A stretch of 64,000 nt of DNA, taken from assembly GCA_947496175.1 (NCBI GenBank), contig CANMBU010000003.1, positions 462,334 to 526,333 on the forward strand, written 5' to 3'. This DNA comes from an uncultured Roseovarius sp. Its GTDB lineage: Bacteria > Pseudomonadota > Alphaproteobacteria > Rhodobacterales > Rhodobacteraceae. Made by a program: the position numbers and the translations under genes. The notes below the pieces were generated by a model, which saw nothing but the letters and a program-made list of their open reading frames with translations, made no database searches and was not told the DNA's origin. Positions 12,597 through 30,944 of the stretch are shown piece after piece. Position 1 is the first letter of the stretch. Each line of letters opens with the position of its first letter.

Positions 12597-12694
12597 AGCC
12601 GGGACTCAATTCGAACACTTTATTCGATGAGTTAGAGCGGTGGAACGCAGTCCTTGCTGAGCATAAAAACGAATTGCGGGGGCCGAGACCATGA
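12587..12694 (+). CDS. 35-codon frame giving the predicted recombinase C-terminus in the excised (attP) form
   Basis: MAEKPGLNSNTLFDELERWNAVLAEHKNELRGPRP*; same frame through the att core as the recombinase; stop overlaps the mobC ATG (ATGA). Confidence 0.6.
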   Translation: MAEKPGLNSNTLFDELERWNAVLAEHKNELRGPRP

Positions 12695-13080
12695 CACGGC
12701 ACCCTGCAAATTCACCTGAGCCGACCAAGCGTCTTGCGCCTTTTTCTCTTCGTCTGACGGTCGAAGAACGCGAACAGCTTGAACGCCAATCCGGTGGCCT
12801 TTCGCTCGGGGCTTACATCAAATCCGTCATTTTTTCAGATGACGCCCCCAAGTATCGCAAACGCCGCAAAGGTTCGACCGCAGAGCAACAACTGCTCGCC
12901 GAGATACTGGCGCGGCTTGGTCAAACGCGCACAGCCAATAACCTCAATCAGATCGCCAAGCACCTCAATCAAGGAACGCTGGTTGTGGATGAAGAATTAG
13001 AGGCTGATCTCAACCGCGCCGTGGCGGAAGTCGCCTGGATGCGCGCGCAATTGATGAACGCACTCGGGAGAAAGTCATGA
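12691..13080 (+). CDS. mobC: Relaxosome accessory protein (MobC-like, ribbon-helix-helix)
   Basis: FSLRLTVEERE RHH start; NNLNQIAKHLN MobC motif; coupled to relaxase. Confidence 0.85.
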   Translation: MTRHPANSPEPTKRLAPFSLRLTVEEREQLERQSGGLSLGAYIKSVIFSDDAPKYRKRRKGSTAEQQLLAEILARLGQTRTANNLNQIAKHLNQGTLVVDEELEADLNRAVAEVAWMRAQLMNALGRKS

Positions 13081-14351: not shown

Positions 14352-14401
14352 TCCGCGACACACCCTCAATCCACATCATTCATATCCAATAGGAGATTGC
14401 C

Positions 14402-16219: not shown

Positions 16220-16292
16220 TCCAGCACATCGCTCATGCTCCTCCCATTCTGGGGGGAGCACCTTTCCCACTTTCATATGAGGAGGTCAGACA

Positions 16293-17201: not shown

Positions 17202-17326
17202 GTTGCTCTAAAACTACTTGATTGTATTTTCGTCAAAGCGCGATGCAAAGACTTAGGTACAACTATGCAGAGCCTTGACCAGCTTGAATCGAACCAGAGT
17301 GGAACACAAAATGAGAAAGAATTCAG

Positions 17327-17575
17327 TCAGATACTTCTTCTCGAGAAAGGTTGCATTTTGACGTTTCGGGAAACTACAAAATCATTTCCAACCTTTTCCT
17401 TTAACTCAGCGAGACGGCCCTCAGCGACTTCAACATCTGCACAGCGACCTCTGTCAAAAACTTTCACAAGCTTAACAAAGTCCACGTCAGCCAATACTTT
17501 ACCATAGTCTAATTGCCCGCCAGAGTGGTTCATCGACATACGTTTCGCCGCTCGCATACTCAATGTACAAATCAT
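17327..17575 (-). CDS. Small protein directly downstream of the S8 peptidase (possible I9/prodomain-like partner)
   Basis: 82-aa ORF, same strand, 30 bp after the S8 stop; alternating beta/alpha pattern. Confidence 0.55.
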   Translation of the reverse strand: MICTLSMRAAKRMSMNHSGGQLDYGKVLADVDFVKLVKVFDRGRCADVEVAEGRLAELKEKVGNDFVVSRNVKMQPFSRRSI

Positions 17576-17605
17576 AGCTCGAACCTACCACATTGATTAG
17601 AAAGG

Positions 17606-18820
17606 TTAAATAGGAACATTTTCCTTTATTTGTGGCAATTTAATGATGCCAAACCCTTGTTTGTCGTGGTGGATACCTGTGTCGTCACATAAATCTTTCA
17701 ATGTTTCTTTAACATAGTCAACTCTCTGTTGCAAAGAATTGTCTTGTTTTTCAAAGTCTTTCTTGCACAACACTTGTGATAAAATTGCTGTCACAATTGG
17801 AGCAGCAAAAGAAGTACCATCCATCTCAAAAATCGATCCATCTGAATAAGCAATGTCAACACCGATACCGGGAGCTACAGCGTCCAAGCCTGGCCCAAAG
17901 CAGGTTCCATGGTGAAAGAAAACAGATTGGCCGTCAGACGTTCGCCCTATATTTCCAACATCTTCCAGGGATTCCACCTGACTGATATTGTAGTCTGTTC
18001 CAACTGGTGCTGCGTCCACCAACCCTATGCTTCCCACTCCTACCACCGTAGGCAACTCCGCTGGCATTGCCAATTGGCGGACATTTTCGTTTCCAGCAGC
18101 AACCACAACGGCACAACCATTCAACAAAGCAAACTCAATTTCTTCTTCAAAACGCTCCTTCGCTTCAACGTGCTCTAATTTGGTATCGTCAAAATGAAAG
18201 CCGCTTGAAATGTTGATCACGTCAACACCATAGTCTTGAACTAGGGCCGAGATACCTGAACACGCTGTCTTGGTATCTAAATACTCACCGGAAGCATCTG
18301 CAGCATCCCACAGGAATATCTCATAGTCAGAAACGCCATCTAGAACGCTCGAAACGACCGTGGCAACATGAAGCCCGTGAAAATTGACGGGTGAATTTTC
18401 ACTGGGCAAATTCTCGTCTAATCCAACTACGTGCAAAGGATTTGCATCAGGTGAGCGAGGCACGCCGATGTCTATCACTCCGATCCTAGTCCTTTTATCC
18501 TTACCAAAAGCAACACCCCCGCAAGTCAAGTTTCTCCACCAACTGGATTCCCCGTTCGCTTTAATTTCCGGACAATAAATTTTTTGTTCCCTTTTCGAGT
18601 ATTCCAGACTCTTTGTAACACGCCAGTGCCCATCACATGGGATAACACGAACTTTGTCCGGGTAAATTCCCTCCAAAACTGGAACTTCAACGCACCCGTC
18701 CTCCATCGTTGGAAATAGTCGATCGTGCACGCGAGCCCCATAGTGAAACTCTAATAACGCACCAATCGGTTGATCTACGGGACCAAGAACTTGTACCTTC
18801 TTACCACTCATGTTTTGCAT
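17606..18820 (-). CDS. S8 (subtilase) serine peptidase, no signal peptide
   Basis: Catalytic motifs IGVIDIG, HGLHVA, AAGN, GTSFAAP. Confidence 0.88.
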   Translation of the reverse strand: MQNMSGKKVQVLGPVDQPIGALLEFHYGARVHDRLFPTMEDGCVEVPVLEGIYPDKVRVIPCDGHWRVTKSLEYSKREQKIYCPEIKANGESSWWRNLTCGGVAFGKDKRTRIGVIDIGVPRSPDANPLHVVGLDENLPSENSPVNFHGLHVATVVSSVLDGVSDYEIFLWDAADASGEYLDTKTACSGISALVQDYGVDVINISSGFHFDDTKLEHVEAKERFEEEIEFALLNGCAVVVAAGNENVRQLAMPAELPTVVGVGSIGLVDAAPVGTDYNISQVESLEDVGNIGRTSDGQSVFFHHGTCFGPGLDAVAPGIGVDIAYSDGSIFEMDGTSFAAPIVTAILSQVLCKKDFEKQDNSLQQRVDYVKETLKDLCDDTGIHHDKQGFGIIKLPQIKENVPI

Positions 18821-18837
18821 AACCTTTGGGAATCATT

Positions 18838-19197
18838 ATGGACTTTGAAAATTTAACAGAAGATCAACTTCGCGCTCTAGAAGAATTAGGGGAAGAATTG
18901 GAAAAAGTTTCCTGGCAGCCTGAAACTATTCCGATGAAGCCGTATGGATTGGGGAAAAAGATCAGTAATGCGAAACTGCTCGCGATAAACTACGTCAATG
19001 AAAACCGTGAGGAAATGCAAAAGCATGTTTGCAAAGACAATGCGGTAAAGATTGAGATACAAGCTGCCGGCGCCAGTACAGCAACAGTCGCTGACGCCTT
19101 TCAGGCCATGGCAGGTGCACCAATACCAGTTTGGAATCTAGCAAATGTCGTATGTATGTTAGGTCTCGGTAAATTTTGCCAATGGAAGGCAAAGTAA
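18838..19197 (+). CDS. Hypothetical protein divergent from the S8 peptidase
   Basis: 119-aa ORF; acidic N-terminus; small-residue/hydrophobic C-terminus (..VVCMLGLGKFC). Confidence 0.7.
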   Translation: MDFENLTEDQLRALEELGEELEKVSWQPETIPMKPYGLGKKISNAKLLAINYVNENREEMQKHVCKDNAVKIEIQAAGASTATVADAFQAMAGAPIPVWNLANVVCMLGLGKFCQWKAK

Positions 19198-19237
19198 ACT
19201 AGGAACGATGTTTTTTCTGCATTCTACATTGAGGATT

Positions 19238-19858
19238 CTAAACCACCGCCACCTTGTTTACCGCCCGTATGATCGTTTGCGGTGACAACTCTAACTCTTC
19301 TGCCAACTCATCGACAGACGCCATCCCCGAATGCAGTCTTTCCTTTAGGATCGGCACCACCTCCGGCGGAATAGCCCTGGGCCTGCCAATATGCACACCC
19401 CTGGCACGGGCGGCTTCCATCCCTGCCTTGGTGCGTTCGCGGATTTGCTCGCGCTCAAACTCTGCAAACACGGCCAATTGACCATATAGCAATCGTCCAA
19501 TGGATGTGGTGGTGTCGATCCTTTGGGTGAGGGCTATGAAGTCCACGCCATTCTCGCGCAGATCTTCGAGAAGTTGTAGGAGGTGCAGCACAGATCGGCT
19601 GAGACGATCCAGTTTCCACACTACCAGCGTGTCGCCGGAACCAAGCTCTCCTAGGAGTGTTTCGAGCGAGCATCGATCTTTGATAGCGCCTGAGACGCCC
19701 AAGTCACCATAGATGGTATCGCACCCTGCCTCTTTGAGCGCATCCACCTGTAGAGCCTCAGATTGGTCAGCGTCCGACACGCGGACATAACCGATTTTGC
19801 GCCCTTTTGGTCTAAGCTCTTGTTTGGACTCTGTGTTTCTCTGTTGAGGTTTGTTCAT
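19238..19858 (-). CDS. Small serine recombinase (Hin/Pin-type invertase/resolvase)
   Basis: IGYVRVS..Q catalytic Ser, LVVWKLDRLSRS, IDTTT..GRL, ERT.AGM.AAR..G..GRP, C-terminal HTH. Confidence 0.93.
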   Translation of the reverse strand: MNKPQQRNTESKQELRPKGRKIGYVRVSDADQSEALQVDALKEAGCDTIYGDLGVSGAIKDRCSLETLLGELGSGDTLVVWKLDRLSRSVLHLLQLLEDLRENGVDFIALTQRIDTTTSIGRLLYGQLAVFAEFEREQIRERTKAGMEAARARGVHIGRPRAIPPEVVPILKERLHSGMASVDELAEELELSPQTIIRAVNKVAVV

Positions 19859-19915
19859 TGGCTCAGTGTGCCACTTGAGTGGCTTCGTACAAGCGGAATT
19901 CATGGCATTTTCTCC

Positions 19916-20060
19916 TTGTCAAAAGGGGTCCCTTTGCGAAGCCGCTGAATCCGAGGTTTTGCGCGATCTCATTGATCCGAGATTTCTGTGGATAAACGGG
20001 GATTTGGTGCGTTTGCCCCGCCGCGTGGTAAGAGTTATCTAAAGGGACCCCTTTTGATGG
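19916..20060. repeat. Two inverted 26-bp hix-like recombination sites enclosing ~120 bp
   Basis: TTGTCAAAAGGG-GT-CCCTTTGCGAAG (19916-19941) and TTATCTAAAGGG-AC-CCCTTTTGATGG (20035-20060); perfect 17-bp inverted repeat 19919-19935/20041-20057. Confidence 0.75.
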
Positions 20061-20093
20061 GTGATTGGTTGCGAATGAAGACCGCATCATAGC

Positions 20094-20981
20094 TTGCCAA
20101 AGGGAGACCTCATGTCGTTCAAGTTACTATGCCAAACCGAACGTTTGTCGGTTCTTACTCTTGTTACTTGTCTTTTAATTCCTGCCACCGCCAATAGAAC
20201 CGAAGCACTTAGTGACCTGAGTGAACTCTGGCCTGCTCCCCTTTCGGTCGAAAGTAGCTTTGAGGGACTCGGCATTGATATCAAAGGCATCGCGATGACC
20301 ATGTCGATGAAAGAGGCGCAATCAGTTCATGGCGGTGATTTCTCGAATGCAATATGGCGGTTTCGCAATCAAAACCGCCTCTCCAAGGAGAAGGTAACCA
20401 GACAGGATGTCGGCAACCTGAAAGTCAAATTCGATCAACCTGGTGCCTACGATGACCTCCGCACATTAGGATCGCACTGGCACACAGGTAATCGCATGAT
20501 CCGTATGACAAGGGATGTCGAATTCTATGACGTCGACCGACAACCTTCGGCACAGAACTTCGTGGCATCTGTGATCGAAAAATATGGTACGCCTTCTAAC
20601 GGTCCATATCGTACCACGGGTAAATATCGCTATACGGTCAAACCGCATGAGGCGCGTCGATGGATGTTTGACAATGCGCAGCTCTCAACGACCTGCGAAG
20701 TCTACGATCTTCCCGTTGATCTCAAGGACGCAACACGGCTCAAGGAGGACAACCTGGAAGCCATCATTGCTGATCTTGAAACGCCTGAGGCTTGTGATGG
20801 ATACATGGAAATTTTGCATGAAATCACACCAGCATCCACTGTCAGCAAATATCGTATTCAAATCACCGATGTTCGATTGCTGATGATTGATGCACTCAAT
20901 GAACGGCGCGTCCAGGCAAATATGGAAGCCTACTTTGAAAGGGCTTTACAATCTGGCAACAAAAACACTCCGGACTTATGA
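20094..20981 (+). CDS. Secreted hypothetical protein
   Basis: 295-aa ORF with signal-like N-terminus (SVLTLVTCLLIPATA); likely start nearer 20112. Confidence 0.75.
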   Translation: MPKGDLMSFKLLCQTERLSVLTLVTCLLIPATANRTEALSDLSELWPAPLSVESSFEGLGIDIKGIAMTMSMKEAQSVHGGDFSNAIWRFRNQNRLSKEKVTRQDVGNLKVKFDQPGAYDDLRTLGSHWHTGNRMIRMTRDVEFYDVDRQPSAQNFVASVIEKYGTPSNGPYRTTGKYRYTVKPHEARRWMFDNAQLSTTCEVYDLPVDLKDATRLKEDNLEAIIADLETPEACDGYMEILHEITPASTVSKYRIQITDVRLLMIDALNERRVQANMEAYFERALQSGNKNTPDL

Positions 20982-21304
20982 AGAGCGTCTCGGAAGAAAA
21001 AAGTAAGTGGGGCGTGACGACCCCTCCGTCTCTTTAATTTCCCACTAACAGGGTTGCTCCTGCAACCCTCTGCCCTTCGGCGAGAAATGGGGGTGCAAGG
21101 GTCAAGATCAATCGATGGCGGGCGCAGGTATCTTCGATGCCTAGCCTCGGGAGACCGGCTATTGATCTTGATCCCGCGCCGGGGGCGGTAGCCCTAAGAA
21201 TCAACTCAAGCATGCAGAAGTCATTTGATTTCCCGCAAAGAAGCAATAGGCTAGCCTTTAGTGCAACGCCTGCGCGCTATTGGCTTTTTATTTGGGGGAA
21301 TTGA

Positions 21305-22222
21305 ATGTTGAGGCTTCGAAAAACCAACGGTTTGAAAATCATTACAGCAATAATTTTTGCTGCGCTTTCAGCGCCTTCTCTGGCATTAGCTATGGAATGT
21401 AACCTGGACACGAGCTTCACACATAAGACCAAACACCATGGAAAACGTCCTGTTTACACAGATAAAAACTCTGTGTTTTTCACGGCACCAATGGCAGTGA
21501 ATACTGACGGTGCACCAATCTCGTACCACCCCGATGACCCATGGGGAAACACTGGTAAAGCAATTAACACGATTTGCAATGGAGCCAATGTGATCCTGCC
21601 AAACGGAAAAAAGATCAGGTATGATAAATGTACCAAACTTATTGAAGGTTTTAAGGAAGCAAAGGCATCCGGTTGGGAAAACAAAGCCACAGCAAGAATG
21701 GACTTCTATGGTATAGCCTCCTCGGGCTTTACTCCCTGCATAAATGACAAAGAGCCATACGAAGGATATTTTGTATCCACTACCTCGGTCATTGCAGACA
21801 AGTCGAAAGCGGTGTGCGATCAAGATAGATATCTTAATTCGATCGAAATACCGTTCGCAATTTATCCCGGTGCGAAAAAATTTACTTCACACGGCGTCGG
21901 AAAAAGAGACGTCGTTGTCTATTTCAATCCAGAAAACAGTGCGATCGAATTCGGGATAATAGGAGACCGTGGTCCAAAATGGGGACTTGCAGAAGGGTCA
22001 ATCGCTTTTGCCCAGTCTCTGAGACAAACCGACAGTCTTCCGACGTCGCGTAAAGACACATATAATTTTGGTGTTAGCAAGGTTCATGGGCTGATTTTGC
22101 CAAACGCTAGTTTAGAACCACCTTACACTGCCGAAAACGTAAGAACCCGAGCCAGAAACGAGTTTAACAACTGGGGAGGAATGGACCGCCTAAATGCATG
22201 CATTAAGCAGCATGGCGGTTAA
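21305..22222 (+). CDS. Secreted GH75 (chitosanase)-like glycoside hydrolase
   Basis: Signal peptide; AVNTDG, YLNSIEIPF and GIIGDRGP..AEGSIAFA resemble GH75 catalytic motifs. Confidence 0.6.
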   Translation: MLRLRKTNGLKIITAIIFAALSAPSLALAMECNLDTSFTHKTKHHGKRPVYTDKNSVFFTAPMAVNTDGAPISYHPDDPWGNTGKAINTICNGANVILPNGKKIRYDKCTKLIEGFKEAKASGWENKATARMDFYGIASSGFTPCINDKEPYEGYFVSTTSVIADKSKAVCDQDRYLNSIEIPFAIYPGAKKFTSHGVGKRDVVVYFNPENSAIEFGIIGDRGPKWGLAEGSIAFAQSLRQTDSLPTSRKDTYNFGVSKVHGLILPNASLEPPYTAENVRTRARNEFNNWGGMDRLNACIKQHGG

Positions 22223-22261
22223 ATTCCAAAGTAGCGCGGCTCATGTATGGGACATTTCTCA

Positions 22262-22960
22262 ATGAAGTTTTTAGTACTGTCTTTTTTTGTTTTCTTGGCG
22301 ATACCGTCTTCTGCAAAGGCTCAAGGTCTAAGAGATTTTATCAAAGAAACTATCAACGAAGCCGCTGGACCTCCTGGAAGGAGTTTTGGGGACAAGTCAC
22401 ATTTGATGGTTGTGAAAGCGGATGGGGGCGTCACATTTATCTTTCTTTGCAGCGCGGGCAAAGAGAATGGTGCGGGCGACAAATTGGTGAATGCAATTTT
22501 TGATGGACTGAACCAAGCGACCGCTGGTGTTTCTGTCTTTTTCAGATCTTGGATACGGAGAGAGATCGAAAAGGGTGTGGTAAACGAGGGCGATGCGTTC
22601 TGTGGTGTCTTTGCCAAAAAAACTGGTGGTAAGAGCAAAGCCAGGAATGTACGAGACGGCAGCATCTATACAACCTCGTGGCGAAATGGCGAGAAGGTTC
22701 AATCGGTAACTGATGAAAGGGCCTGTAAAAAAGTGCACAAGAGATACTTTTGTTTCGAAGTCGCCGAAGGGCCTTCGGATGACGGTGAAATCGACGGTGT
22801 AAGTGGATGCTTTGAAGCTAAAGTCGATGGGCGGCTGGTTTCCTTTTCGTTTGGCCGAGGAGAGACTATTCCGGTCGAAACACGAAGTACTTTCGGCCCT
22901 AAAGACTCAAAATCTTCAGAGGGTTGCGTGGTTCGAAAATTGGGCGTTGAAAAGAATTAG
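22262..22960 (+). CDS. Secreted Cys-containing hypothetical protein
   Basis: Signal peptide MKFLVLSFFVFLAIPSSAKA; six Cys; follows the GH75-like gene. Confidence 0.7.
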   Translation: MKFLVLSFFVFLAIPSSAKAQGLRDFIKETINEAAGPPGRSFGDKSHLMVVKADGGVTFIFLCSAGKENGAGDKLVNAIFDGLNQATAGVSVFFRSWIRREIEKGVVNEGDAFCGVFAKKTGGKSKARNVRDGSIYTTSWRNGEKVQSVTDERACKKVHKRYFCFEVAEGPSDDGEIDGVSGCFEAKVDGRLVSFSFGRGETIPVETRSTFGPKDSKSSEGCVVRKLGVEKN

Positions 22961-23297
22961 TTGAGAACAAAAAGCAATATTGCAGAAAGCGCTGCCAAGG
23001 CCGAATTTTGAGATTTGATGAATACTAAGGGTGCTCGAGAAGTCGCGATAACCTCTTGGTCGGGTCCAGCAATGAAATGCAGGCGGCATCCAACCCGCGC
23101 AGGGATGGTCTCCATGAAATGGTCAGGATTGCATAAGGGAAGGAACGCCCTTTGCTCGATGGGTGTGGGGAGAGAGAAATCTCCCACGAGGGATCAAACA
23201 CCGATATGTTTGTGTGGTCAAATCAGGCTCAACGCCTGTTCCTGACCACTTGCTTTGGGGGATAGAACGGGGGAGCGCAGCAACCCCCTTCTCAAGT

Positions 23298-23324
23298 GGG
23301 GCGGTACTACCGCCCCCATCTTGC
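23298..23324 (+). other. Candidate origin of transfer (MOBP-type nic site)
   Basis: 9-bp inverted repeat GGGGCGGTA-c-TACCGCCCC immediately followed by CATCTTG|C, like RP4 TATCCTG|C and R64 CATCCTG|T. Confidence 0.55.
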
Positions 23325-23481
23325 GATGGACGCTATCAACATCATGCTACTCCTTTAGCATCTCAATTGCGGGTCAACCCATGTCAATTTCACCAACACC
23401 GTATCGTGGATAAGCTACAATCTTAGATTGACTCGCAGCATTGCTTCTCATCAGTCTGGTTAGAAGGAAAAGGCAACGATT

Positions 23482-24789
23482 ATGAGATTAGAAGAAATTA
23501 GCATTGGCGCTTTGTCGGTAAATCGCGCGAATGATCGTCACGGTGAATTGGAAAACGAAACGGCAGCAATTGCCTGGCTTTTCAATACACGCGAAACTCA
23601 CATGAAAAACCTCGCCAAAGACATCGTTGCGGAGGGGCGAATTTTTGAGCCACCACTCGTCTCGCCCGAAGGATCAAGTTATTTGGTCTTCGATGGAAAC
23701 CGTCGTGTCACCTGTTTAAAGCTACTGGAAAAACCTTCCCGTGCGCCAACAACGACTCTGCAAGAATACTTTGCGAACTTAAAAGCTGATTGGCAGGGAG
23801 ACTTTCCAAAGAAAATCCTATGCCAGGTTGAAGACGACAGAGACCTCATCGACGATATTCTTTACAGAAGGCACACTGGAACGCTGAATGGTGTTGGCCA
23901 GACAACCTGGGACGACCGAATGAAAGACAACTTTGTCGCTCGTTCGGGTAAGAAAACAGGCTTCAACATCGCTGATGAAATCGAACAACGATTGGAAGCA
24001 GCAAACCTGTTACCATCTACCAAAATCCCACGGTCGAACCTGAACCGCCTTCTGTCGTCAGAAGCAATTAGAAACAGGTTCGGATTTACGGCAAAAAACA
24101 AAGTCTTCGACTACACGCATAATCCTGATGTTGTATTAAAAACGCTTGCTGCTCTCGCTGATGATTTTGCAGCTGGACGGGTAGTTCTTGGCGACATTTG
24201 GGACAATGAAAACAAGTTGAAATATGTAGACGGATTAGAAGACCAAGGGTTACTTCCTACGGACGAAGACATCATCGATAACGAGAGCGGCACGGGCAAA
24301 CCAAGCCCAAAACCGAAGCCCAAACCAAAACCGAAGCCCAAACCAAAACCCACGAAACGAACGACTTTGATCCCGCAAAAAGAATTCGGAATTTTATGGA
24401 CGGGCAAACAACACCGCATGCAGGCGATCTGGGAAGAACTACAGTTTCACCTAAACCCCGAAAAGCATCCGAACGCGGTTTCCGTTCTGTTTCGAGTGCT
24501 CTTGGAGTTAGCCGCTGACCATTACGCAAGTGAACATGGCGTGGCGTTACAACAAAACGACAAACTGGCACGAAGGGTCGAAAAGGTCGGTGATGCGTTG
24601 TTTAGCCAAGGCAAAATCGACAAGAAGCAGAGAACAGCAACAAAGAAGTTTGGTCAGCTAGACCAACTGGTATCAGCAGATACGCTTAACCGATATGTCC
24701 ATTCACCCAACTTCGCGCCTTCGGCCAAACACCTAGAAGCGCTTTGGGATACCATGGCCGATCTGATCGTCGCCTGCCTCAAAGGTTAG
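23482..24789 (+). CDS. ParB/Srx-like N-terminal domain, PK linker and HEPN-like C-terminal domain
   Basis: EPPLV..VFDGNRRVTCL; (PK)n linker; LFRVLLEL...LNRYVH helical C-terminus. Confidence 0.65.
   Translation: MRLEEISIGALSVNRANDRHGELENETAAIAWLFNTRETHMKNLAKDIVAEGRIFEPPLVSPEGSSYLVFDGNRRVTCLKLLEKPSRAPTTTLQEYFANLKADWQGDFPKKILCQVEDDRDLIDDILYRRHTGTLNGVGQTTWDDRMKDNFVARSGKKTGFNIADEIEQRLEAANLLPSTKIPRSNLNRLLSSEAIRNRFGFTAKNKVFDYTHNPDVVLKTLAALADDFAAGRVVLGDIWDNENKLKYVDGLEDQGLLPTDEDIIDNESGTGKPSPKPKPKPKPKPKPKPTKRTTLIPQKEFGILWTGKQHRMQAIWEELQFHLNPEKHPNAVSVLFRVLLELAADHYASEHGVALQQNDKLARRVEKVGDALFSQGKIDKKQRTATKKFGQLDQLVSADTLNRYVHSPNFAPSAKHLEALWDTMADLIVACLKG
24308..24351 (+). repeat. 18-bp tandem repeat encoding the PKPKPK linker
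   Basis: CAAAACCGAAGCCCAAAC x2 plus a partial unit. Confidence 0.8.
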
Positions 24790-24814
24790 CATTTCAAAGA
24801 TTTTGAAGGTCTGG

Positions 24815-25108
24815 TCAAAACAGGCTACCCTGACGCGAAGCCTCAACATAGGCCTTCCATTGCTTTGATTGCGCTTCTTTGTTGAGCCAATCGGTCACAA
24901 GGGTGATCACTTCGTCGATTTCAAGAACGGGATCCATCGGTCCAAAGTAATGCGATCTGTAACCTGTGTCTGAGATGGGAATAGGTTGGTCATCCTCAGC
25001 ACAAATTGCGACGTGATCTATAACGCCATACTGCCTTGGTGTGTAAGAGAGCCGAATGGATCGGCCCTCCCATGTGATGTTGATGTCAATCGTTTCGCCG
25101 TTACGCAT
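24815..25108 (-). CDS. Small hypothetical protein ending in a clamp-binding-like QGSLF motif
   Basis: AGGAG RBS; start overlaps the upstream gene's stop; C-terminus ..RQGSLF. Confidence 0.7.
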   Translation of the reverse strand: MRNGETIDINITWEGRSIRLSYTPRQYGVIDHVAICAEDDQPIPISDTGYRSHYFGPMDPVLEIDEVITLVTDWLNKEAQSKQWKAYVEASRQGSLF

Positions 25109-25337
25109 CGCTCTGCTCCTCAGTCTCAACAGTGATTGGAAAGAGGTAGATGTCATCTGTGATGATCTGCGTGCCTGAGGTTCGGATACAAATGCCTCCG
25201 TCCTTGGCACGGTTCCAGGCGACACCGATGCGTTCCAGCCGTGCCTTGCGGCCATAGCCTTTGGGTGTTTTGACGATCCAGTCGGGATCATTGTTTGCCT
25301 CGGGTGAGTGTTGTGAAGTTTGACGAGTTTCTGTCAT
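25101..25337 (-). CDS. Small hypothetical mobile-element protein
   Basis: GAAAGGAA RBS; ERIGVAWNR..GGI.IR beta-rich core. Confidence 0.7.
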   Translation of the reverse strand: MTETRQTSQHSPEANNDPDWIVKTPKGYGRKARLERIGVAWNRAKDGGICIRTSGTQIITDDIYLFPITVETEEQSDA

Positions 25338-25667
25338 GGCTTTTCCTTTCTGTTATTCCGCCAGACCATCTGGCCGATGTCTCGGGAAAAAGCGGACCAG
25401 CTCTCACACATCATGCGCTACACGGTTCGAAGCGAATGCGAAGAAGTGGTGCGGGCCGCGCATTGATGGGATGAGGGATGATCTGCTTCCCATAGAACAA
25501 ACGGCTGATGATCTGGTGTGATTAAGGCAGCAAGGAACGCGTCAGGAAATCAATCCAAACAGTGCCTCACGCCAGCGGAATTATGGTCAGGTCATTTGGT
25601 AAAAAGGACCCTGCTTTGAGGTTGCATCGCAGAGGGTGTGTTAACTGAAGTAGCGCAAGGCTAATCA

Positions 25668-26123
25668 TTAAGTAGTCGACCACAAGCTGCGTGTGTTTTG
25701 GCCTTCACCTATAACTATCCGCCAAGCTGTAAACGCTGCGCGAAATCTGCCAGCGGATTCAAGGTTGTCATGAAGGGAAACAAGAGCTGACTCACTGGAG
25801 TAACTCTTCGTCTGTGTTGCAAGCGCAAGTCTGTTCTCAAGTCTAACGACAGAAAGAAGCGGCGCACCGAAGCCGTTGGTTTCGATCAGGCTCGTTTCGT
25901 CAACCTCAACTCGGACATCTGGGACAATTAGACCGTCCCAATTCTCGTTGTCTTTGCTTTCGAAGCAGTGCGATTGAAACTCACCAGAAAGGAATACTGC
26001 CGTGTTGACGTTTTCAATATGGCCCACAAGGATTATCTTTCCATAAGTGTCGGTGGGCAAAATCAGACTTAGGGGTTTTGCCTTCCCGACTGGGCCAACG
26101 GTGAATTCATTAGGTGACAACAA
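25668..26123 (-). CDS. Hypothetical beta-rich protein
   Basis: 151-aa ORF, third gene of the TIR cluster. Confidence 0.7.
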   Translation of the reverse strand: MLSPNEFTVGPVGKAKPLSLILPTDTYGKIILVGHIENVNTAVFLSGEFQSHCFESKDNENWDGLIVPDVRVEVDETSLIETNGFGAPLLSVVRLENRLALATQTKSYSSESALVSLHDNLESAGRFRAAFTAWRIVIGEGQNTRSLWSTT

Positions 26124-26210
26124 CTCGAATTCTCCTAACCAATTAGAAAAGATGATCGTACTTAAATGATCCCAATAAACCTACGAGTCCTAGCTCAAAG
26201 CTTGACCATT

Positions 26211-26375
26211 TCACTCCCAGCCTCGCCGAACATCGGTGCGGTGGCACGCGGGGCAATGTACGGCGCTGGTTGGTCGATTTTCTTGACGGGCTTCACGACG
26301 CTCATCCTCATTGAGTACTTCCGTTTCGAAGCGATGTCCGCAATTGTTGCAACGAAATCGAACTTGTTCAGGCAT
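26211..26375 (-). CDS. 54-aa zinc-ribbon protein
   Basis: CNNC..CPAC; ATG overlaps the TIR gene stop by 8 nt. Confidence 0.75.
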   Translation of the reverse strand: MPEQVRFRCNNCGHRFETEVLNEDERREARQENRPTSAVHCPACHRTDVRRGWE

Positions 26376-27312
26376 GGCTAATACCTGCCTGTTCAATAAA
26401 CTCGTTCCACAAATACTCTGCTGCTTGCTCAGGATTTAGACGCTCAGGACCATTTCCAAACACTGACATTGTCACGACCAGGAATAGTTCATACTCGTCA
26501 GAGGATACGTTGAAACCACCGTTTGCCGTATTGTCTGCGGCATTTTCGTTAAAGGAAAAGTAGATGTCTCCCAAGGCAAAACCCGCATTTCGGCAATGCA
26601 CAGTGATATGCGCCGTTCCATGTTGACGCCCTTGATTGATGACAGTACTACCAAAAGAGTTCGCGCCTCTATCTACAAATCGGCCACGCAGGCCATCTAC
26701 CGCATCTATTTCCTCAATCGCACGTTTGAAATAATCCCTAATCGTGTTGAAAGACGCATCGCGATATTCGCTAAGGTCGATTTCATCAAAATCGCGTTGA
26801 ACGCGATAGCGTGGGACCGCCTTTTGTTGAGGCGTTGCCACCGCTTCATAAGCGGCAATTTCTGGTTTCTTAAACTCACCCGCAGTGACTATGCGTCGAA
26901 TTTCCTGAACCACGTCCAGGTAAGCCGTATTATCGTTCGTCCATTCTGAGATTGGGAGACCGTCTTTTGGCACAGCTTTCAAACGCCTCAGTTGAGGCAT
27001 GGCGGCCCAATCGCATGGCTCTACGATGATCGGCACAACACGCGCCTCCTGAGCAGCATGCCGCTCCAATGCTCTTTGCATTTCCTGATCCACACAATAG
27101 TTAGATGCAATGAAATCAGGGCTAACCATCAGCAAAAAAATGTCTGCCGTCTCTAGCTCTCTATTGATCTCATCGTCCAAGACATCGCCGGCCAAAATCT
27201 CACGATCGTACCACGTGTCGATCTGGCCTTCCCGTTGAAGGTTGGCGAGGTGAACATGGAGGCGAACAAGCGCATCGGTGTCTCGATGTGAGTAGGATAT
27301 AAATGCCTTCAT
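26368..27312 (-). CDS. TIR-domain protein with uncharacterised C-terminal domain
   Basis: AFISYSHRD, WYDREILAGD, LMVSPDFIASNYCVDQEM (catalytic Glu kept), VVPIIVEPCDW. Confidence 0.9.
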   Translation of the reverse strand: MKAFISYSHRDTDALVRLHVHLANLQREGQIDTWYDREILAGDVLDDEINRELETADIFLLMVSPDFIASNYCVDQEMQRALERHAAQEARVVPIIVEPCDWAAMPQLRRLKAVPKDGLPISEWTNDNTAYLDVVQEIRRIVTAGEFKKPEIAAYEAVATPQQKAVPRYRVQRDFDEIDLSEYRDASFNTIRDYFKRAIEEIDAVDGLRGRFVDRGANSFGSTVINQGRQHGTAHITVHCRNAGFALGDIYFSFNENAADNTANGGFNVSSDEYELFLVVTMSVFGNGPERLNPEQAAEYLWNEFIEQAGISHA

Positions 27313-27466
27313 AAAGTTGCTCGTGTTTATCTTTTGTTCTATTTTATCTACCTTGGGACGAGTTGGCAACGCCGTTTCGGCATCTAGCGTGTCCAAGAAG
27401 ACTAATTGGATGCGCAGTGAACCGGTGTAATAAGGAATTGAGCTTCTTCCACTTAGGATCATTCGC

Positions 27467-28450
27467 ATGACCGAAAATGATAAGTCACCTCACCCCAGCT
27501 ATGACAATACTCTAAAAGAAGAGACCTTGAACTTTCTTAAGCTTTGGGCTGGTGAACCAGGAAATCTGCTGAAAGAAACACTGCCAGGCGAAAGTAAAGA
27601 CGCAACCTTCTCTCTAGATAGGCAATACCTTTTTTCTGAGACGATTTTCCTAGCAGACCGAAACGCCGAAGAGCACCAAGCTAGGGAGCGGAAGCACATA
27701 TGCGAAGACATCGCGGTACAGTCTTTTCCCTTAGAACGTATCTTTGCCCCAACAGAAATCGACGAACTTGAGCAATCATTTTACGAAATTTCATCGCTTC
27801 AAACTATGCACCACAACCAGACAATTTCCGTGGATCATAAGCTCAAAGCGGATTTCAATGATGAGGGTGGAACTGCTAGGCTGAATTTGATAAAGTTCTT
27901 TCTTATCAAGCGTATGTGCTGTATACTTGATGGTAAGAATTTAACCATTGAAACCCGTAACAAGTCATTAGTGAACCACAAGGAAATACGACTCAAACAC
28001 CTGGAACTAGAAATTTCGAACCTACTTCGAGAAGCGTTCGCAATTTGTGTTGATGACCAGGTTGAGAAACGTGATTTCCAAGAGCGAATTATGAAACGCG
28101 CTCTTCAAGCTGATGACGCCACGTCCTTTCCAACAGAAGCGCCCGAACTTTACGTAGATCGCAAAGACGAAACAGAGCCACCGGCTAAATTCCTGATGAG
28201 GGTCTACAAAAAATGGGCCAAAACAGGCTTAACTAGGAGAAGTATTGGCAATCTTGATCCTACTTTAATCCGCGCATTGTATCGAGAAGACATCCCTGTC
28301 GAGATCGATCAGATGTTCCCAAAATCACCGGGTGGACGACCAAAGAAAAGCCGTTCTCTAGAAGAGGAAGCCGCTGCACGTAAAAAAAGGCGTGAGGCTA
28401 ACCGTGAACAAGTCAGAAAACATCGCGAACGAAAACGAAATCCACAGTAA
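27467..28450 (+). CDS. Hypothetical protein with basic C-terminal tail (possible DNA-binding)
   Basis: 327-aa ORF; GGRPKK AT-hook-like motif and RKKRREANREQVRKHRERKR. Confidence 0.7.
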   Translation: MTENDKSPHPSYDNTLKEETLNFLKLWAGEPGNLLKETLPGESKDATFSLDRQYLFSETIFLADRNAEEHQARERKHICEDIAVQSFPLERIFAPTEIDELEQSFYEISSLQTMHHNQTISVDHKLKADFNDEGGTARLNLIKFFLIKRMCCILDGKNLTIETRNKSLVNHKEIRLKHLELEISNLLREAFAICVDDQVEKRDFQERIMKRALQADDATSFPTEAPELYVDRKDETEPPAKFLMRVYKKWAKTGLTRRSIGNLDPTLIRALYREDIPVEIDQMFPKSPGGRPKKSRSLEEEAAARKKRREANREQVRKHRERKRNPQ

Positions 28451-28483
28451 CAACATTACACATCTACAGTAATCTGCTTTCTG

Positions 28484-28512
28484 TTGACATAAGCTTCGAA
28501 TCCCTTCATAAG
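28484..28512 (+). promoter_or_regulatory. Sigma70-type promoter
   Basis: TTGACA-N17-CATAAG upstream of the 44-aa ORF. Confidence 0.6.
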
Positions 28513-28551
28513 GTTAATCACTGCAATTGATAAACCTGAAAGGTTACAAAA

Positions 28552-28686
28552 ATGGCTGTAAGTAATGAACAACTGAAGCAAGCGGAAGCCGTCGGCGCAC
28601 GCGGCGGCAATGTAAACACCTCTACACTCCCTTATGGTGACAAGGTGAAAATCGATGCGGCTGTCCGCAAAGGCAAAGGTATGTGA
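28552..28686 (+). CDS. 44-aa small protein missed by the ORF track
   Basis: GAAAGG RBS; MAVSNEQLKQAEAVGARGGNVNTSTLPYGDKVKIDAAVRKGKGM*; own promoter and terminator. Confidence 0.65.
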   Translation: MAVSNEQLKQAEAVGARGGNVNTSTLPYGDKVKIDAAVRKGKGM

Positions 28687-28713
28687 AGCTTACTTCTCGT
28701 ACATGCCAACATT

Positions 28714-28744
28714 GGGCGGCGGAGAACTAATCTGCCGCCCTTTT
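28714..28744 (+). terminator. Intrinsic terminator
   Basis: GGGCGGCGGA-gaactaa-TCTGCCGCCC followed by TTTT. Confidence 0.7.
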
Positions 28745-28994
28745 CGTTTATCAATCGGAAATTTCAATGATCCATCCAAACGACATCCAAATCCCCAGAT
28801 GCGCTTACGTCGTATCATTTTGTGGTGCTTGGGCGTTGTCATTGTTATTAAGAACTTTCACTAACCCACTAATATTTTTATATAATTTTCTTTACATGAT
28901 AGGAATTTTATCCTATGATGTTCTCTTTATGTTCGAGCGCGTGACGCGAACGACGAATACCCAAAATTGGGAGAAAGGACAGGTTTAATCTGAG

Positions 28995-29312
28995 ATGAAA
29001 GACAGAGAAATGAACAACAACGTGCAAAGACCAAAGCTAGAAATTGATTGGGATGCTTATGGGGAGATGATGGAAGACTCCGATATGTCTGAAGAAGACA
29101 AACGGGTTCTCATCGAAACACTTTGGAACATTGTTGTCGCCTTTGTTGATCTCGGATTTGATCTGCATCCTGAGGAGAATGATTGTGGAGAACCCCGTTC
29201 TCTCAGTCCATTTCCGATCAAAGATATAGTAGAATTGAGTAATCGAAGAAAAAGAAAGAAACGAGATAGTGCGCGCTCCGATGATGCGCAGAAAGGACAA
29301 GGTCATGAGTAA
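28995..29312 (+). CDS. Acidic hypothetical protein coupled to the serine recombinase
   Basis: 105-aa ORF (IETLWNIVVAFVDLGF); overlaps the recombinase ATG. Confidence 0.75.
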   Translation: MKDREMNNNVQRPKLEIDWDAYGEMMEDSDMSEEDKRVLIETLWNIVVAFVDLGFDLHPEENDCGEPRSLSPFPIKDIVELSNRRKRKKRDSARSDDAQKGQGHE

Positions 29313-30944
29313 AGACGTTAACCAAAAAGCAGTTGTCTATTGCCGTGTATCGTCTGCTGCGCAAATGACCAAAGGCGACGGTTTGGCCTCCCAGGAAAGT
29401 CGGTGTAAGGAATATGCCCGCTATCGCGGTTATGACGTCAAAAAGGTCTTTCAGGATAACATGTCTGGGGGTGATCTTGATCGCCCTGCCATGAGCGCGA
29501 TGGTTCAGTTTATTCGCGAACAGGATGATACGGTTGTCGTCATCATTGATGATATTAATCGGTTTGCACGTGATGTGGTGGGGCACTGGCATTTACGCGC
29601 CATGGTCGCTGAGGCCGGGGGCAAATTGGAAAGCCCCACATTGGAGTTCAAGGAAGACAGCGACTCCATTCTGGTGGAGAATCTTCTCGCTTCTGTCTCA
29701 CAGCATCAGCGTCAGAAGAATGGCGAGCAAACCAAGAACAGAATGCGCGGGCGCGCCCTCAACGGCTATTGGACCTTCTCCGCGCCTCCTGGATACAAGT
29801 TCGAGCGCGTGTCTGGTCATGGCAAACTGTTGGTTCGGGATGAACCCTTGGCCTCGGTTATTCAGGAGGCGCTCGAAGGGTTTGCCACGGGACGATTTGA
29901 AACGCAGGCAGAGGTCAAACGCTTCCTTGAAAACGAACCTGCCTTTCCAAAAGATTCACCCAATGGGACAATCCGTTTTGAGAAGATCATTCGGTTGATG
30001 TCGCGTGTCGTTTATTCGGGTCATATTGAATACCCGAATTGGGACGTCTCCCTGCGCAAGGGCCATCATGAACCCATCATCTCCTTGGAGACCTATGAGG
30101 CCATCCAAAGAAAGATCAAAGAGGGATCACGCGCGCCGTTTCGCAAGGATATCAATGCAGACTTCCCTTTGCGTGGATTTATCGCCTGCGACGACTGCGG
30201 CACGCCTCTGACGGCCTGTTGGTCTACCAGCAAGTCAGGCAAGAAACATCCTTACTATCTGTGCCACAACAGGGCTGTGACAGCTATCGCAAGTCCATTC
30301 GACGTGATGTGGTGGAAGAGGAATTCCAGTCCCTCTTGCGTTCTCTACAGCCTTCAGAGGGACTATTCGCCATTGCAAAGCGGATGTTCAAAGACGCGTG
30401 GGGACAACGACAGGCGCAAGCGGATGTAGGCCGGGCCATTCTTCGAAAAGATCGCGATGCAGTAGATCGCAAGATTGAAGGTCTTTTGGACCGCATTGTG
30501 GATACTGATAACACTTCGCTCGTCGCCACTTACGAAAAGCGATTGGAAAAACTGGATCGCGAGAAACTGGTTCTGGATGAAAAACTCGAAAACCATGGCC
30601 CAAAACCGGGCACCTTCGAGGAATTGTTCGAACACCCACTAGATTTTCTCTCAAGCCCCTGGAAACTATGGGAAAGTGGGTCTCTCAACCTGCGCCGTAC
30701 CGTCCTCAAACTGGCTTTTGCAGACCGTATGACCTACTCCCGAAAAGAGGGACTTCGAACACCAAAAACCACTACACCTTTCAAGGCGTTAGAGGGTTTT
30801 TGTGGTGATGGATGTAAAATGGCGGAGAGACAGGGATTCGAACCCTGGGTGGGCTTGCACCCACAACGGTTTTCGAGACCGCCCCGTTCGACCACTCCGG
30901 CACCTCTCCGCGGGGGTCTGGAGCGTGCGTGTAATCGGCTTTGA
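29305..30944 (+). pseudogene. Large serine recombinase (integrase), frameshifted at ~30271
   Basis: AVVYCRVSS..Q catalytic Ser; IDDINRFAR; recombinase domain; Zn ribbon CDDC..YLC; second half continues in another frame (GCDSYRKSIRR..coiled coil) and reads through the att core. Confidence 0.88.
30820..30909 (-). tRNA. tRNA-Ser(CGA)
   Basis: GGAGAGG/TCTCTCC acceptor stem, CT-CGA-AA anticodon loop, long variable arm, GGTTCGAATCC, encoded CCA. Confidence 0.95.

What the first reader, a model, noticed from the sequence alone, without database searches (positions are those of the whole stretch)
25668..27312. TIR + zinc-ribbon + unknown gene cluster: candidate new TIR-based anti-phage system
Seen: a TIR domain with the catalytic Glu (SNYCVDQEM) fused to a ~150-aa unknown domain, translationally coupled to a 54-aa CxxC/CxxC protein, then a 151-aa beta-rich gene on the same strand. 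No SIR2/Macro (ThsA), cyclase, Argonaute or NLR partner is visible. Known: bacterial TIRs act as NADases or signal synthases in Thoeris, CBASS, Pycsar and SPARTA. Inference: a self-contained TIR system whose C-terminal domain senses phage or oligomerises, regulated by the zinc ribbon.
Basis: partly seen in the sequence, partly recalled or inferred. Interest (0 to 1): 0.76.

Follow-up and report, generated by a model that had tools for sequence, protein, structure and literature searches.

The report
TIR-Y4lF gene with zinc-ribbon partner
A mobile island carries a gene for an immune-type, NAD-cleaving (TIR) protein, a tiny overlapping zinc-ribbon gene that annotation misses, and a small all-beta protein; this cassette recurs in bacterial defence islands and is probably an untested variant of TIR-based anti-phage immunity.

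Summary
On the minus strand lie a 314-aa TIR protein (26368-27312), a 54-aa CxxC/CxxC zinc ribbon whose ATG overlaps the TIR stop codon (26211-26375), and a 151-aa all-beta protein (25668-26123).

The "unknown" C-terminal domain is the uncharacterised Pfam family Y4lF. The whole protein matches a PADLOC ThsB1 model end to end, so the PADLOC result is not null. No ThsA or other known Thoeris effector is in the island, and the genome has no SIR2_2 domain.

- **Zinc ribbon:** it follows the TIR gene in 51 of 80 related loci, all of them Pseudomonadota, nearly always overlapping its stop. Three natural fusions exist.
- **151-aa gene:** it is a homologue of the gene after y4lF on plasmid pNGR234a. 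It sits beside a TIR-Y4lF gene in 18 of 19 places, but only a minority of TIR-Y4lF loci have it.
- **Context:** neighbours are almost always other defence systems on mobile elements.

My best reading is a self-contained, infection-triggered TIR NADase with a zinc-ribbon subunit. The main rival is a Thoeris-like signal maker with the 151-aa protein as a new effector. I found no description in the literature. I rate it a new variant of a known kind, of moderate interest.

The parts
26368..27312 (-). TIR-Y4lF protein, 314 aa. The N-terminal TIR domain covers about residues 1-155 and has the invariant catalytic-type Glu77. A variable linker covers about 145-165. The C-terminal Y4lF domain (Pfam PF27176) covers about residues 165-314, which is 26371-26820.
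   Evidence: Pfam TIR_2 E=1e-17. PADLOC ThsB1 model PDLC00420 E=3e-66 over positions 4-312 of 319. Precomputed PF27176 'Y4lF'. E77 invariant in 54/54. 956 homologues. In the model of a 62%-identical homologue, the TIR part has pLDDT above 90 and the middle of Y4lF about 30.
26211..26375 (-). 54-aa zinc-ribbon protein with two CxxC pairs. Its start codon overlaps the TIR stop codon by 8 nt. A public PGAP annotation of a relative does not call it.
   Evidence: Sequence. Zn_ribbon_8 E=1.8e-6, below cut-off. Present in 51/80 related loci at the same overlapping position. Third-codon-position changes dominate: 28482 against 11912 and 8946. Natural fusions P0118, P0182 and P0276. No CDS at that place in the PGAP-annotated plasmid NZ_CP068999.1.
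25668..26123 (-). 151-aa all-beta protein of unknown fold. It is a homologue of the 161-aa gene downstream of y4lF on pNGR234a. It has a TTG start with an AGGAG Shine-Dalgarno sequence and lies 87 nt after the zinc-ribbon stop.
   Evidence: 44 homologues with no Pfam family. 54% identity to the pNGR234a gene, E=2e-58. AlphaFold2 pLDDT 90 and pTM 0.87, 14 strands. No structural match in PDB or BFVD; best E values 0.17 and 0.077. Beside TIR-Y4lF in 18 of 19 places.
27341..27369 (-). Promoter-like site TTGCCA-17-TAAAAT, about 30 nt upstream of the TIR start codon.
   Evidence: Consensus scan, 10 of 12 matches. The number of such sites in the region is no higher than in shuffles, so this is weak evidence.
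12583..30839 (.). Context: an integrative mobilizable island of about 18.2 kb with lower G+C, bounded by direct repeats at 12583-12607 and 30815-30839 at tRNA-Ser(CGA). It carries MobC, a relaxase, a T4 coupling protein, an S8 subtilase, an invertase, PD-Lambda-5_A, the TIR cassette and a serine integrase.
   Evidence: Composition, tRNA, repeats, Pfam and PADLOC. The TIR gene is absent from all 36 same-genus genomes searched.

Best explanation
This is a horizontally acquired TIR-based conflict (anti-phage) cassette whose core is one protein: an NAD-cleaving-type TIR head fused to the Y4lF domain.

Shown:
- The TIR head is a canonical TIR with an invariant catalytic-type Glu.
- The 54-aa zinc-ribbon gene is a conserved, purifying-selected, translationally coupled partner, and it is sometimes fused to the same chain.
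- The cassette sits among other defence systems on mobile elements.
- No known signal-responsive effector accompanies it.

Inferred:
- The Y4lF domain holds the TIR head inactive and acts as the sensor or assembly module.
- The zinc ribbon is made 1:1 and binds TIR-Y4lF as a small regulatory or sensing subunit.
- On infection the complex oligomerises, the TIR heads form composite active sites, and they cleave NAD+. This stops the infected cell, much as the one-protein TIR-like NADase Swarozyc does.
- The 151-aa beta protein is an exchangeable accessory of a subset of these cassettes, with a role (adaptor, second sensor or modulator) that is still open.
For: TIR head:
- Pfam TIR_2; E77 invariant in 54/54.
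- Foldseek finds canonical enzymatic TIRs: plant TNL TIRs, Cat1, AbTir, SPARTA TIR-APAZ and SARM1.

No known effector:
- No ThsA, SIR2, Macro or other effector family among the island ORFs.
- No SIR2_2 domain and no match to two ThsA1 models in the genome.
- 22 of 49 other genomes that carry TIR-Y4lF have no SIR2_2 domain.
- The two SIR2 genes found near relatives belong to SIR2-HerA and SIR2-APAZ/pAgo systems.

Zinc ribbon:
- Present in 51/80 loci down to 43% TIR identity, overlapping the TIR stop in nearly all of them.
- Three natural fusions, one of them divergent.
- In 401 genomes of the class, the zinc-ribbon profile hits only the window and one other genome. There it again overlaps the stop of a TIR-Y4lF gene.

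Stand-alone units:
- About ten zinc-ribbon loci, including an 83%-identical relative (L006), have no co-directional third gene.
- Bacteroidota TIR-Y4lF genes stand alone beside type I restriction-modification genes.

Y4lF as a module that carries output heads:
- Of 84 full-length Y4lF proteins, 78 have TIR_2, 3 have the NAD-depleting CAP12/Pycsar-type TIR, 2 have SEFIR, 1 has a cyclase and 1 has NACHT.

Defence context:
- PD-Lambda-5_A, type I RM, SIR2-HerA, pAgo systems, GmrSD, PDC-S66/S67 and DUF4062 are neighbours.

Precedent:
- Swarozyc is a one-chain head-plus-auxiliary-domain NADase activated by a phage protein (bioRxiv 10.64898/2026.05.01.722283).
Against: - No activity, protection or toxicity has been measured for any member.
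- Sequence cannot tell an NAD-depleting TIR from a signal-making TIR.
- PADLOC files the protein under ThsB, a signal maker.
- The 151-aa gene is tightly linked to TIR-Y4lF, with gaps of 1-13 nt in rhizobia, and is almost never found elsewhere. A different conserved 173-aa gene takes its place in another clade. This pattern resembles the swapping of Thoeris effectors.
- AlphaFold2 could not fold the middle of Y4lF (pLDDT about 30, pTM 0.47). There is therefore no structural support for a sensor role or for a zinc-ribbon docking site.
- A trans-acting effector elsewhere in the genome cannot be excluded.
Confidence: 0.45

Rival explanations
1. A new Thoeris-like signalling system. TIR-Y4lF, with its zinc-ribbon subunit, would be the ThsB-type sensor that makes an ADPR-derived signal on infection. 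The downstream small protein would be the signal-activated effector. Here that is the 151-aa all-beta protein; in other clades it would be the unrelated 173-aa protein or a 282-aa membrane protein.
For: - Full-length match to PADLOC ThsB1 model PDLC00420.
- The 151-aa gene is beside TIR-Y4lF in 18 of 19 places and almost abuts it in rhizobia.
- Different conserved genes occupy the same slot in different clades. This is the signature that Yirmiya et al. used to define Thoeris types with new effectors.
- The 151-aa protein is more conserved between the window and pNGR234a (54%) than the TIR protein is (36%). It is therefore under strong constraint and moves between TIR lineages.
Against: - The 151-aa protein has no transmembrane segment, no known ligand-binding domain (SLOG, Macro, SAVED and the like) and no enzyme motif. 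It has no structural relative.
- Only 12 of 80 loci have it and 12 have the 173-aa gene. Many close relatives have TIR plus zinc ribbon only, followed by an opposite-strand or housekeeping gene.
- The third-position genes share no detectable homology (hhalign probability 0.8%), and several are clearly unrelated cargo such as transposases, malic enzyme and RidA.
Confidence: 0.28
2. An addiction (toxin-antitoxin-like) module that stabilises the mobile element. TIR-Y4lF would be an NADase toxin, and the co-translated zinc-ribbon protein its labile neutraliser.
For: - Found on plasmids, ICEs and IMEs.
- A small partner gene is translationally coupled to a potentially toxic enzyme.
- Fic, VapBC-type and other TA-like genes are frequent neighbours (scan note e1-3099592).
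Against: - 29 of 80 loci, including all Bacteroidota relatives and two 81-82%-identical ones, lack the zinc ribbon. The rhizobial TIR-Y4lF genes lack it as well. The TIR protein is therefore not constitutively toxic.
- Stable natural fusions of toxin and 'antitoxin' do not fit a labile antitoxin.
- The partner lies downstream and has no DNA-binding autoregulator domain.
Confidence: 0.1
3. An extra ThsB-type sensor that feeds a Thoeris effector encoded elsewhere in the genome. It would be an orphan ThsB acting in trans.
For: - PADLOC ThsB1 match.
- Thoeris islands often hold several ThsB genes. One relative, L082, has a second ThsB-like gene and a TPR/trypsin protein just upstream.
Against: - The genome has no SIR2_2 domain and no match to two ThsA1 models.
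- The gene arrived on an island that is absent from all 36 congeners searched, so a resident cognate effector is unlikely.
- No recurrent effector family appears in the 8-kb flanks of 80 loci.
Confidence: 0.07

Closest known systems
Thoeris ThsB (TIR sensor and signal synthase of ThsA/ThsB systems; PADLOC model PDLC00420 'ThsB1|ThsB')
   Same: It has a TIR domain with the catalytic-type Glu. The match to a PADLOC ThsB1 profile is full length and includes the C-terminal domain (E=3e-66). It lies in defence islands.
   Different: No ThsA (SIR2-SLOG) and none of the published effector kinds of types II-XI is adjacent. By fold and sequence, the TIR head is nearer to canonical TIR_2 enzymes than to the ThsB_TIR family: PF08937 gives only E=0.002, and solved ThsB structures are not among the top 50 Foldseek hits. 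The overlapping zinc-ribbon gene is not part of any described Thoeris type.
y4lF and its downstream gene on the symbiotic plasmid pNGR234a of Sinorhizobium fredii NGR234 (namesake of Pfam PF27176)
   Same: The TIR-Y4lF architecture is the same (36% identity over 96% of the protein). It is followed on the same strand by a homologue of the window's 151-aa protein (54% identity, E=2e-58).
   Different: The rhizobial pairs have no zinc-ribbon gene; the small beta-protein gene starts 10 nt after the TIR gene. Both genes are annotated only as a TIR-domain protein and a hypothetical protein. I found no functional study.
Swarozyc (DUF4062 TIR-like NADase with a C-terminal auxiliary domain; bioRxiv 10.64898/2026.05.01.722283)
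   Same: The logic is the same: a one-chain NADase head plus an auxiliary C-terminal domain, both needed for defence. It is activated by a phage protein and gives abortive infection through NAD+ loss. A DUF4062 gene lies two genes from a TIR-Y4lF/zinc-ribbon pair in one relative.
   Different: The head family differs (DUF4062 against TIR_2) and so does the auxiliary domain. That paper describes no zinc-ribbon partner. Nothing has been tested for TIR-Y4lF.
NAD-depleting TIR effectors of CBASS/Pycsar (CAP12/PCTIR) and SPARTA (TIR-APAZ)
   Same: Here too a TIR head is activated by oligomerisation to deplete NAD+. CAP12-type TIR heads occur on the Y4lF domain in 3 of 84 family members. SPARTA TIR is among the structural matches.
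   Different: Those effectors are switched on by a cyclic nucleotide sensor domain or by a pAgo partner. Neither is present here.

Membership tests
Thoeris type I (ThsA/ThsB) | TIR-domain ThsB with the catalytic Glu | tested here: met
   TIR_2 E=1e-17. PADLOC ThsB1 model PDLC00420 E=3e-66. E77 invariant in 54/54.
Thoeris type I (ThsA/ThsB) | Adjacent ThsA effector (SIR2 plus SLOG) | tested here: not met
   No SIR2 or ThsA match among the island ORFs. No SIR2_2 domain and no match to PDLC00412 or PDLC00416 anywhere in the genome. For the two ThsA1 models no control genome matched either, so those two negatives are weak. No ThsA in the flanks of 80 related loci.
Thoeris types II-XI (Yirmiya et al. 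2025 preprint) | Adjacent effector of a described kind: Macro-TM, SLOG, caspase-like protease, DUF2270, DUF6650, SLATT, CMP hydrolase, TIR, ion channel or HIT hydrolase | tested here: not met
   The zinc ribbon, the 151-aa protein and the flanking 327-aa and 158-aa ORFs have no Pfam, NCBIfam, PADLOC or PHROG match to any of these.
Thoeris (any type) | The TIR makes an ADPR-derived signal on infection, and that signal activates the partner | not testable with these tools
   This needs LC-MS of infected lysates and effector assays.
Pfam PF27176 (Y4lF domain family) | Profile match of the C-terminal ~150 residues | tested here: met
   The precomputed Pfam hit PF27176.1 is recorded for this exact protein and all close homologues, and the family is named Y4lF. 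The local Pfam copy lacks the model. A profile built from 32 C-terminal domains finds 676 clusters, most of them about 315-aa TIR proteins.
FmdB-type zinc ribbon (Pfam Zn_ribbon_8, TIGR02605 CxxC_CxxC_SSSS) | Score above the curated cut-off, with two CxxC knuckles | tested here: inconclusive
   Two CxxC pairs are present and invariant. Zn_ribbon_8 scores 28.3 bits against a cut-off of 34.4, and TIGR02605 scores 23.9 against 31.3.
Swarozyc | DUF4062 TIR-like head | tested here: not met
   The head is TIR_2/TIR, with no DUF4062 match. The resemblance is one of architecture only.
Type II toxin-antitoxin module | The toxin is always accompanied by its neutralising partner | tested here: not met
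   29 of 80 TIR-Y4lF loci lack the zinc ribbon. The rhizobial pairs lack it too.

The most novel reading that the evidence does not exclude
TIR-Y4lF and its zinc-ribbon protein form a previously unrecognised two-subunit immune sensor. The 151-aa protein has a fold with no relative in the PDB or in viral structure predictions. It would be a new kind of TIR-signal receptor or effector, which would define a new Thoeris-like type. That type's small subunit has been invisible to gene callers, and therefore to systematic screens of TIR operons.
Probability: 0.25. Interest if true: 0.75.

Novelty: new variant of a known kind. Interest (0 to 1): 0.58.

Why it matters
TIR domains are the shared enzymatic core of immunity in bacteria, plants and animals, and each new way of switching them on has been informative.

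- **Scale:** the Y4lF family is large, with 676 clusters at 50% identity. At least 355 TIR-Y4lF loci were confirmed in one-genome-per-species collections.
- **Spread:** it occurs in Pseudomonadota, Bacteroidota and other phyla, and it rides on plasmids and islands.
- **No experiments:** I found none, even though the namesake y4lF gene sits on the symbiotic plasmid pNGR234a, a long-available public record.
- **Missed subunit:** the PGAP annotation of a close relative does not call the 54-aa zinc ribbon. The largest systematic TIR-operon screen explicitly discarded TIR genes that looked stand-alone, so cassettes like this one may have been filtered out.

Testing it would show whether a minimal TIR plus a small zinc-binding subunit is a complete immune sensor. 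It would also give a function to the Y4lF domain and to a protein with a new fold.

Tried and rejected
1. **ThsA nearby or in trans.** A SIR2_2 search of the genome and of 49 genomes with relatives found SIR2 genes within 10 kb of TIR-Y4lF in only two kinds of locus. They proved to be SIR2-HerA and SIR2-APAZ/short pAgo, not ThsA.
2. **Homology between the 151-aa family and the 173-aa family that takes its place.** HMM search and hhalign found none (probability 0.8%).
3. **Structure of the Y4lF domain and docking of the zinc ribbon.** AlphaFold2 on a natural fusion gave a confident TIR and zinc ribbon but pLDDT about 30 for the middle of Y4lF, and pTM 0.47. No inference about the interface was drawn. 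A profile search of PDB sequences with the Y4lF domain gave only chance matches (best E=0.17).
4. **Fold of the 151-aa protein.** The model is confident, but there is no significant match in PDB or BFVD.
5. **Table S1 of Yirmiya et al.** The held part does not contain this family's TIR motif. The file was cut when stored, so this is not proof of absence.
6. **Phage genomes.** tblastn found no TIR-Y4lF homologue in 50,697 phage records.
7. **Transcription evidence.** No public sequencing run could be listed for the stretch.
8. **The flanking 327-aa (27467-28450) and 158-aa (24815-25291) ORFs as partners.** They have no family match and no counterpart in any related locus, so I treat them as not part of the cassette.
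9. **Literature.** Searches for TIR with zinc ribbon, for y4lF, for orphan ThsB and for single-gene TIR sensors found no description of this cassette.
Full report
**What is in the window**

Three co-directional genes lie on the minus strand.

The first, 26368-27312, encodes a 314-aa protein beginning MKAFISYSH.
- A longer ORF reaches back to 27468. However, all homologues begin at the MR/KAFISYSH methionine, and a promoter-like site (TTGCCA-17-TAAAAT) lies about 30 nt upstream of it.
- Its N-terminal half is a TIR domain (Pfam TIR_2, E=1e-17).
- The Glu in SNYCVDQEM (E77) is invariant in 54 of 54 aligned homologues, and so are S64, S70, Y72 and C73.

The second gene, 26211-26375, encodes a 54-aa protein with two CxxC pairs. 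Its ATG overlaps the TIR stop codon (ATGCCTGA).

The third, 25668-26123, has a TTG start 8 nt after AGGAG and encodes 151 aa. Its N-terminus MLSPxEFTVG is conserved through 42 homologues, which confirms the start.

**The C-terminal domain is named but uncharacterised**

- The whole TIR protein matches the PADLOC profile PDLC00420 ('ThsB1|ThsB') over positions 4-312 of 319, with E=3e-66.
- The protein collection's precomputed annotation gives Pfam PF27176 for the C-terminal half. Gene tables name this family 'Y4lF'. My local Pfam copy lacks the model.
- A profile of 32 C-terminal domains finds 676 clusters (at 50% identity) among 1.84 billion representatives. Most are proteins of about 315 aa.
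- Of 84 full-length members scanned, 78 carry TIR_2. Three carry the CAP12/Pycsar-type TIR, two SEFIR, one a nucleotide cyclase and one a NACHT/NB-ARC NTPase.
- Y4lF is therefore a module that carries output heads, overwhelmingly TIR heads.
- It has no sequence relative in the PDB (best E=0.17).
- AlphaFold2 could not fold its middle (pLDDT about 30). In the same run the TIR part and the zinc ribbon were confident.
- By Foldseek the TIR part resembles canonical enzymatic TIRs: plant TNL TIRs, Cat1, AbTir, SPARTA TIR-APAZ and SARM1. Solved ThsB structures are not in the top 50.

**The zinc ribbon is a true partner in Pseudomonadota**

- I fetched 80 loci from one-genome-per-species collections; 355 candidates were confirmed in all.
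- tblastn finds the zinc ribbon directly after the TIR gene in 51 of the 80, at TIR identities from 83% down to 43%.
- In nearly all of these, its start lies 7 or 10 nt before the end of the TIR gene.
- Across 44 full-length copies, third-codon positions carry 28482 differences against 11912 and 8946 at the first and second positions. The four Cys, G13, R15, F16, E25, P42, R50 and W53 are invariant. It is a real gene under purifying selection.
- Three natural fusions of TIR-Y4lF to the zinc ribbon exist: P0118, P0182 and the divergent P0276. This argues for a physical association.
- In 401 genomes sampled across the class, the zinc-ribbon profile gives strong hits only in the window's genome and one other. 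There it again overlaps the stop of a TIR-Y4lF gene.
- In the PGAP-annotated Sulfitobacter plasmid NZ_CP068999.1 (TIR 83% identical), no CDS is listed at that place.
- The zinc ribbon is absent from all Bacteroidota, Latescibacterota, Caldilineaceae and Rhodothermales relatives. It is also absent from the rhizobial lineage.

**The 151-aa gene is a tightly linked but optional accessory**

- Only 12 of the 80 loci have it, all of them among the relatives whose TIR protein is 73-83% identical.
- Another 12 loci, in the clade with about 65% TIR identity, have an unrelated 173-aa gene in its place. HMM search finds nothing and hhalign gives a probability of 0.8%.
- Three loci have a 282-aa membrane protein there.
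- About ten zinc-ribbon loci have an opposite-strand or housekeeping gene next. One of them, L006, is 83% identical to the window in its TIR protein.
- Even so, the 151-aa family (44 proteins) is almost never seen away from TIR-Y4lF. It was adjacent in 18 of 19 places examined.
- In Sinorhizobium, Mesorhizobium and metagenomic contigs it follows the TIR gene after only 1-13 nt, with no zinc ribbon. One copy, L089, is solo.
- On pNGR234a the gene after y4lF is 54% identical to the window's protein (E=2e-58), while the TIR proteins are only 36% identical. Conversely, relatives whose TIR is 83% identical have a 151-aa protein that is only about 50% identical. The small gene therefore moves between TIR-Y4lF lineages.
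- Its AlphaFold2 model is confident (pLDDT 90, pTM 0.87) and all-beta. It has no significant match in PDB or BFVD.
- In four relatives it is followed by a 1459-aa protein with a P-loop-like motif and no Pfam or PADLOC match; on the annotated plasmid this gene's start overlaps its stop by 4 nt. The window lacks this gene.

**Context**

- The cassette lies in an island of about 18.2 kb with lower G+C. The island is bounded by direct repeats at 12583-12607 and 30815-30839 at tRNA-Ser(CGA).
- The island carries MobC, a relaxase and a T4 coupling protein, an S8 subtilase, an invertase, PD-Lambda-5_A (E=5e-81) and a large serine recombinase.
- None of 36 genomes of the same genus has the TIR gene.
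- Neighbours in related loci are mostly defence systems:
  - type I restriction-modification;
  - SIR2-HerA with a WYL protein and an SbcCD-like pair;
  - SIR2-APAZ/short pAgo and PDC-S66/S67;
  - a pPIWI-associated nuclease with DUF4365;
  - GmrSD and Fic;
  - ArdA;
  - a ThsB-like gene with a TPR/trypsin protein;
  - DUF4062.
- Fifty plasmid records carry homologues. No phage record does.

**No known effector**

- The island ORFs have no ThsA, SIR2, Macro, SLOG, SAVED, cyclase or pAgo match.
- The genome has no SIR2_2 domain and no match to two PADLOC ThsA1 models. No control genome matched those two models either, so those two negatives are weak.
- Of 49 other genomes with TIR-Y4lF, 22 have no SIR2_2 domain.
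- Clustering of all flank ORFs from the 80 loci shows no recurrent effector family.

**Mechanism**

What is shown:
- a canonical, catalytically equipped TIR head on a conserved Y4lF domain;
- a co-translated, sometimes fused zinc-ribbon partner;
- mobile defence-island context;
- no known signal receptor.

What I infer as most likely (0.45): a self-contained sensor-effector.
- Y4lF and the zinc ribbon hold and then release the TIR head on infection.
- The TIR heads assemble and cleave NAD+, which aborts the infection.
- This is the logic shown experimentally for Swarozyc, the one-chain TIR-like NADase that needs both its catalytic Glu and its auxiliary domain and is activated by the phage portal.

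The main rival (0.28) is a Thoeris-like system in which the variable downstream small gene is the effector. Swapping of neighbours beside one TIR cluster is exactly the signature used by Yirmiya et al.. Against it, the 151-aa protein has no recognisable ligand-binding or killing domain, and many cassettes have no third gene.

An addiction module (0.10) is disfavoured because TIR-Y4lF often occurs without the zinc ribbon and is sometimes fused to it. A trans-acting orphan ThsB (0.07) is disfavoured by the missing effector and the recent horizontal arrival.

**Novelty**

- I found no paper that describes TIR-Y4lF, its zinc-ribbon partner or the 151-aa family.
[quoted passage not shown] It does not mention zinc ribbons.
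- Earlier notes of this scan describe the same TIR-Y4lF plus zinc-ribbon pair in another genome, and a cyclase-Y4lF protein. I confirmed both kinds independently here.
- I rate it a new variant of a known kind (TIR-based defence), not a new category.

Noticed in passing
window 29269-30944: The large serine recombinase next to tRNA-Ser is split over two overlapping reading frames, 29269-30429 and 30219-30944. The zinc-ribbon part ends in frame 1 at '...YYLCHN' and continues in the other frame at 'GCDSYRKSIRRD'. This is either a frameshift or a sequencing error. If it is real, the island can probably no longer excise.
   Followed up: partly
window 23482-24789: A strong PD-Lambda-5_A homologue (E=5e-81) with a KP-repeat linker (KPKPKPKP..., repeats at 24298-24333). 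No recognisable PD-Lambda-5_B lies beside it. The convergent 158-aa ORF at 24815-25291 has no family match.
   Followed up: partly
L002:9580-13959, L004, L005, L085:6637-10942: In four close relatives the 151-aa gene is followed by a 1459-aa protein with a P-loop-like motif (GEGKCGKT) and no Pfam or PADLOC match; on the annotated plasmid (L085) its start overlaps the 151-aa gene's stop by 4 nt. It may be a fourth component, perhaps a STAND-like NTPase. The window lacks it.
   Followed up: partly
L092:521-1369 (minus strand), L049:9235-10083, L052: A 282-306-aa multi-pass membrane protein with no family match follows TIR-Y4lF (with the zinc ribbon in L092 and L049) in three loci. It is followed in turn by a DUF4062 (Swarozyc-type) gene or by PDC-S66/PDC-S67.
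   Followed up: partly
L082:992-3365: In a Mesorhizobium contig the TIR-Y4lF plus 151-aa pair sits just downstream of a 165-aa ThsB-like TIR gene (PDLC00429, E=1e-63) and a TPR-S/Trypsin_2 protein. This may be a protease-type Thoeris-like system.
   Followed up: no
P0214, P0192, P0276 (proteins): The Y4lF domain also occurs behind a nucleotide cyclase head (P0214, 352 aa). In P0192 (466 aa) it sits behind a different TIR plus a middle domain. In P0276 (481 aa) it has a 145-aa N-terminal extension and a fused, divergent zinc ribbon.
   Followed up: partly
window 16293-19903: A DUF7678 protein (E=1e-40), an S8 subtilase (17606-18820, minus strand; weak PADLOC 'subtilase' match) and a small resolvase/invertase (19238-19903, minus strand) lie in the same island. 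Three unannotated ORFs follow at 20094-22960; the last of them has a secretion-signal-like N-terminus.
   Followed up: no
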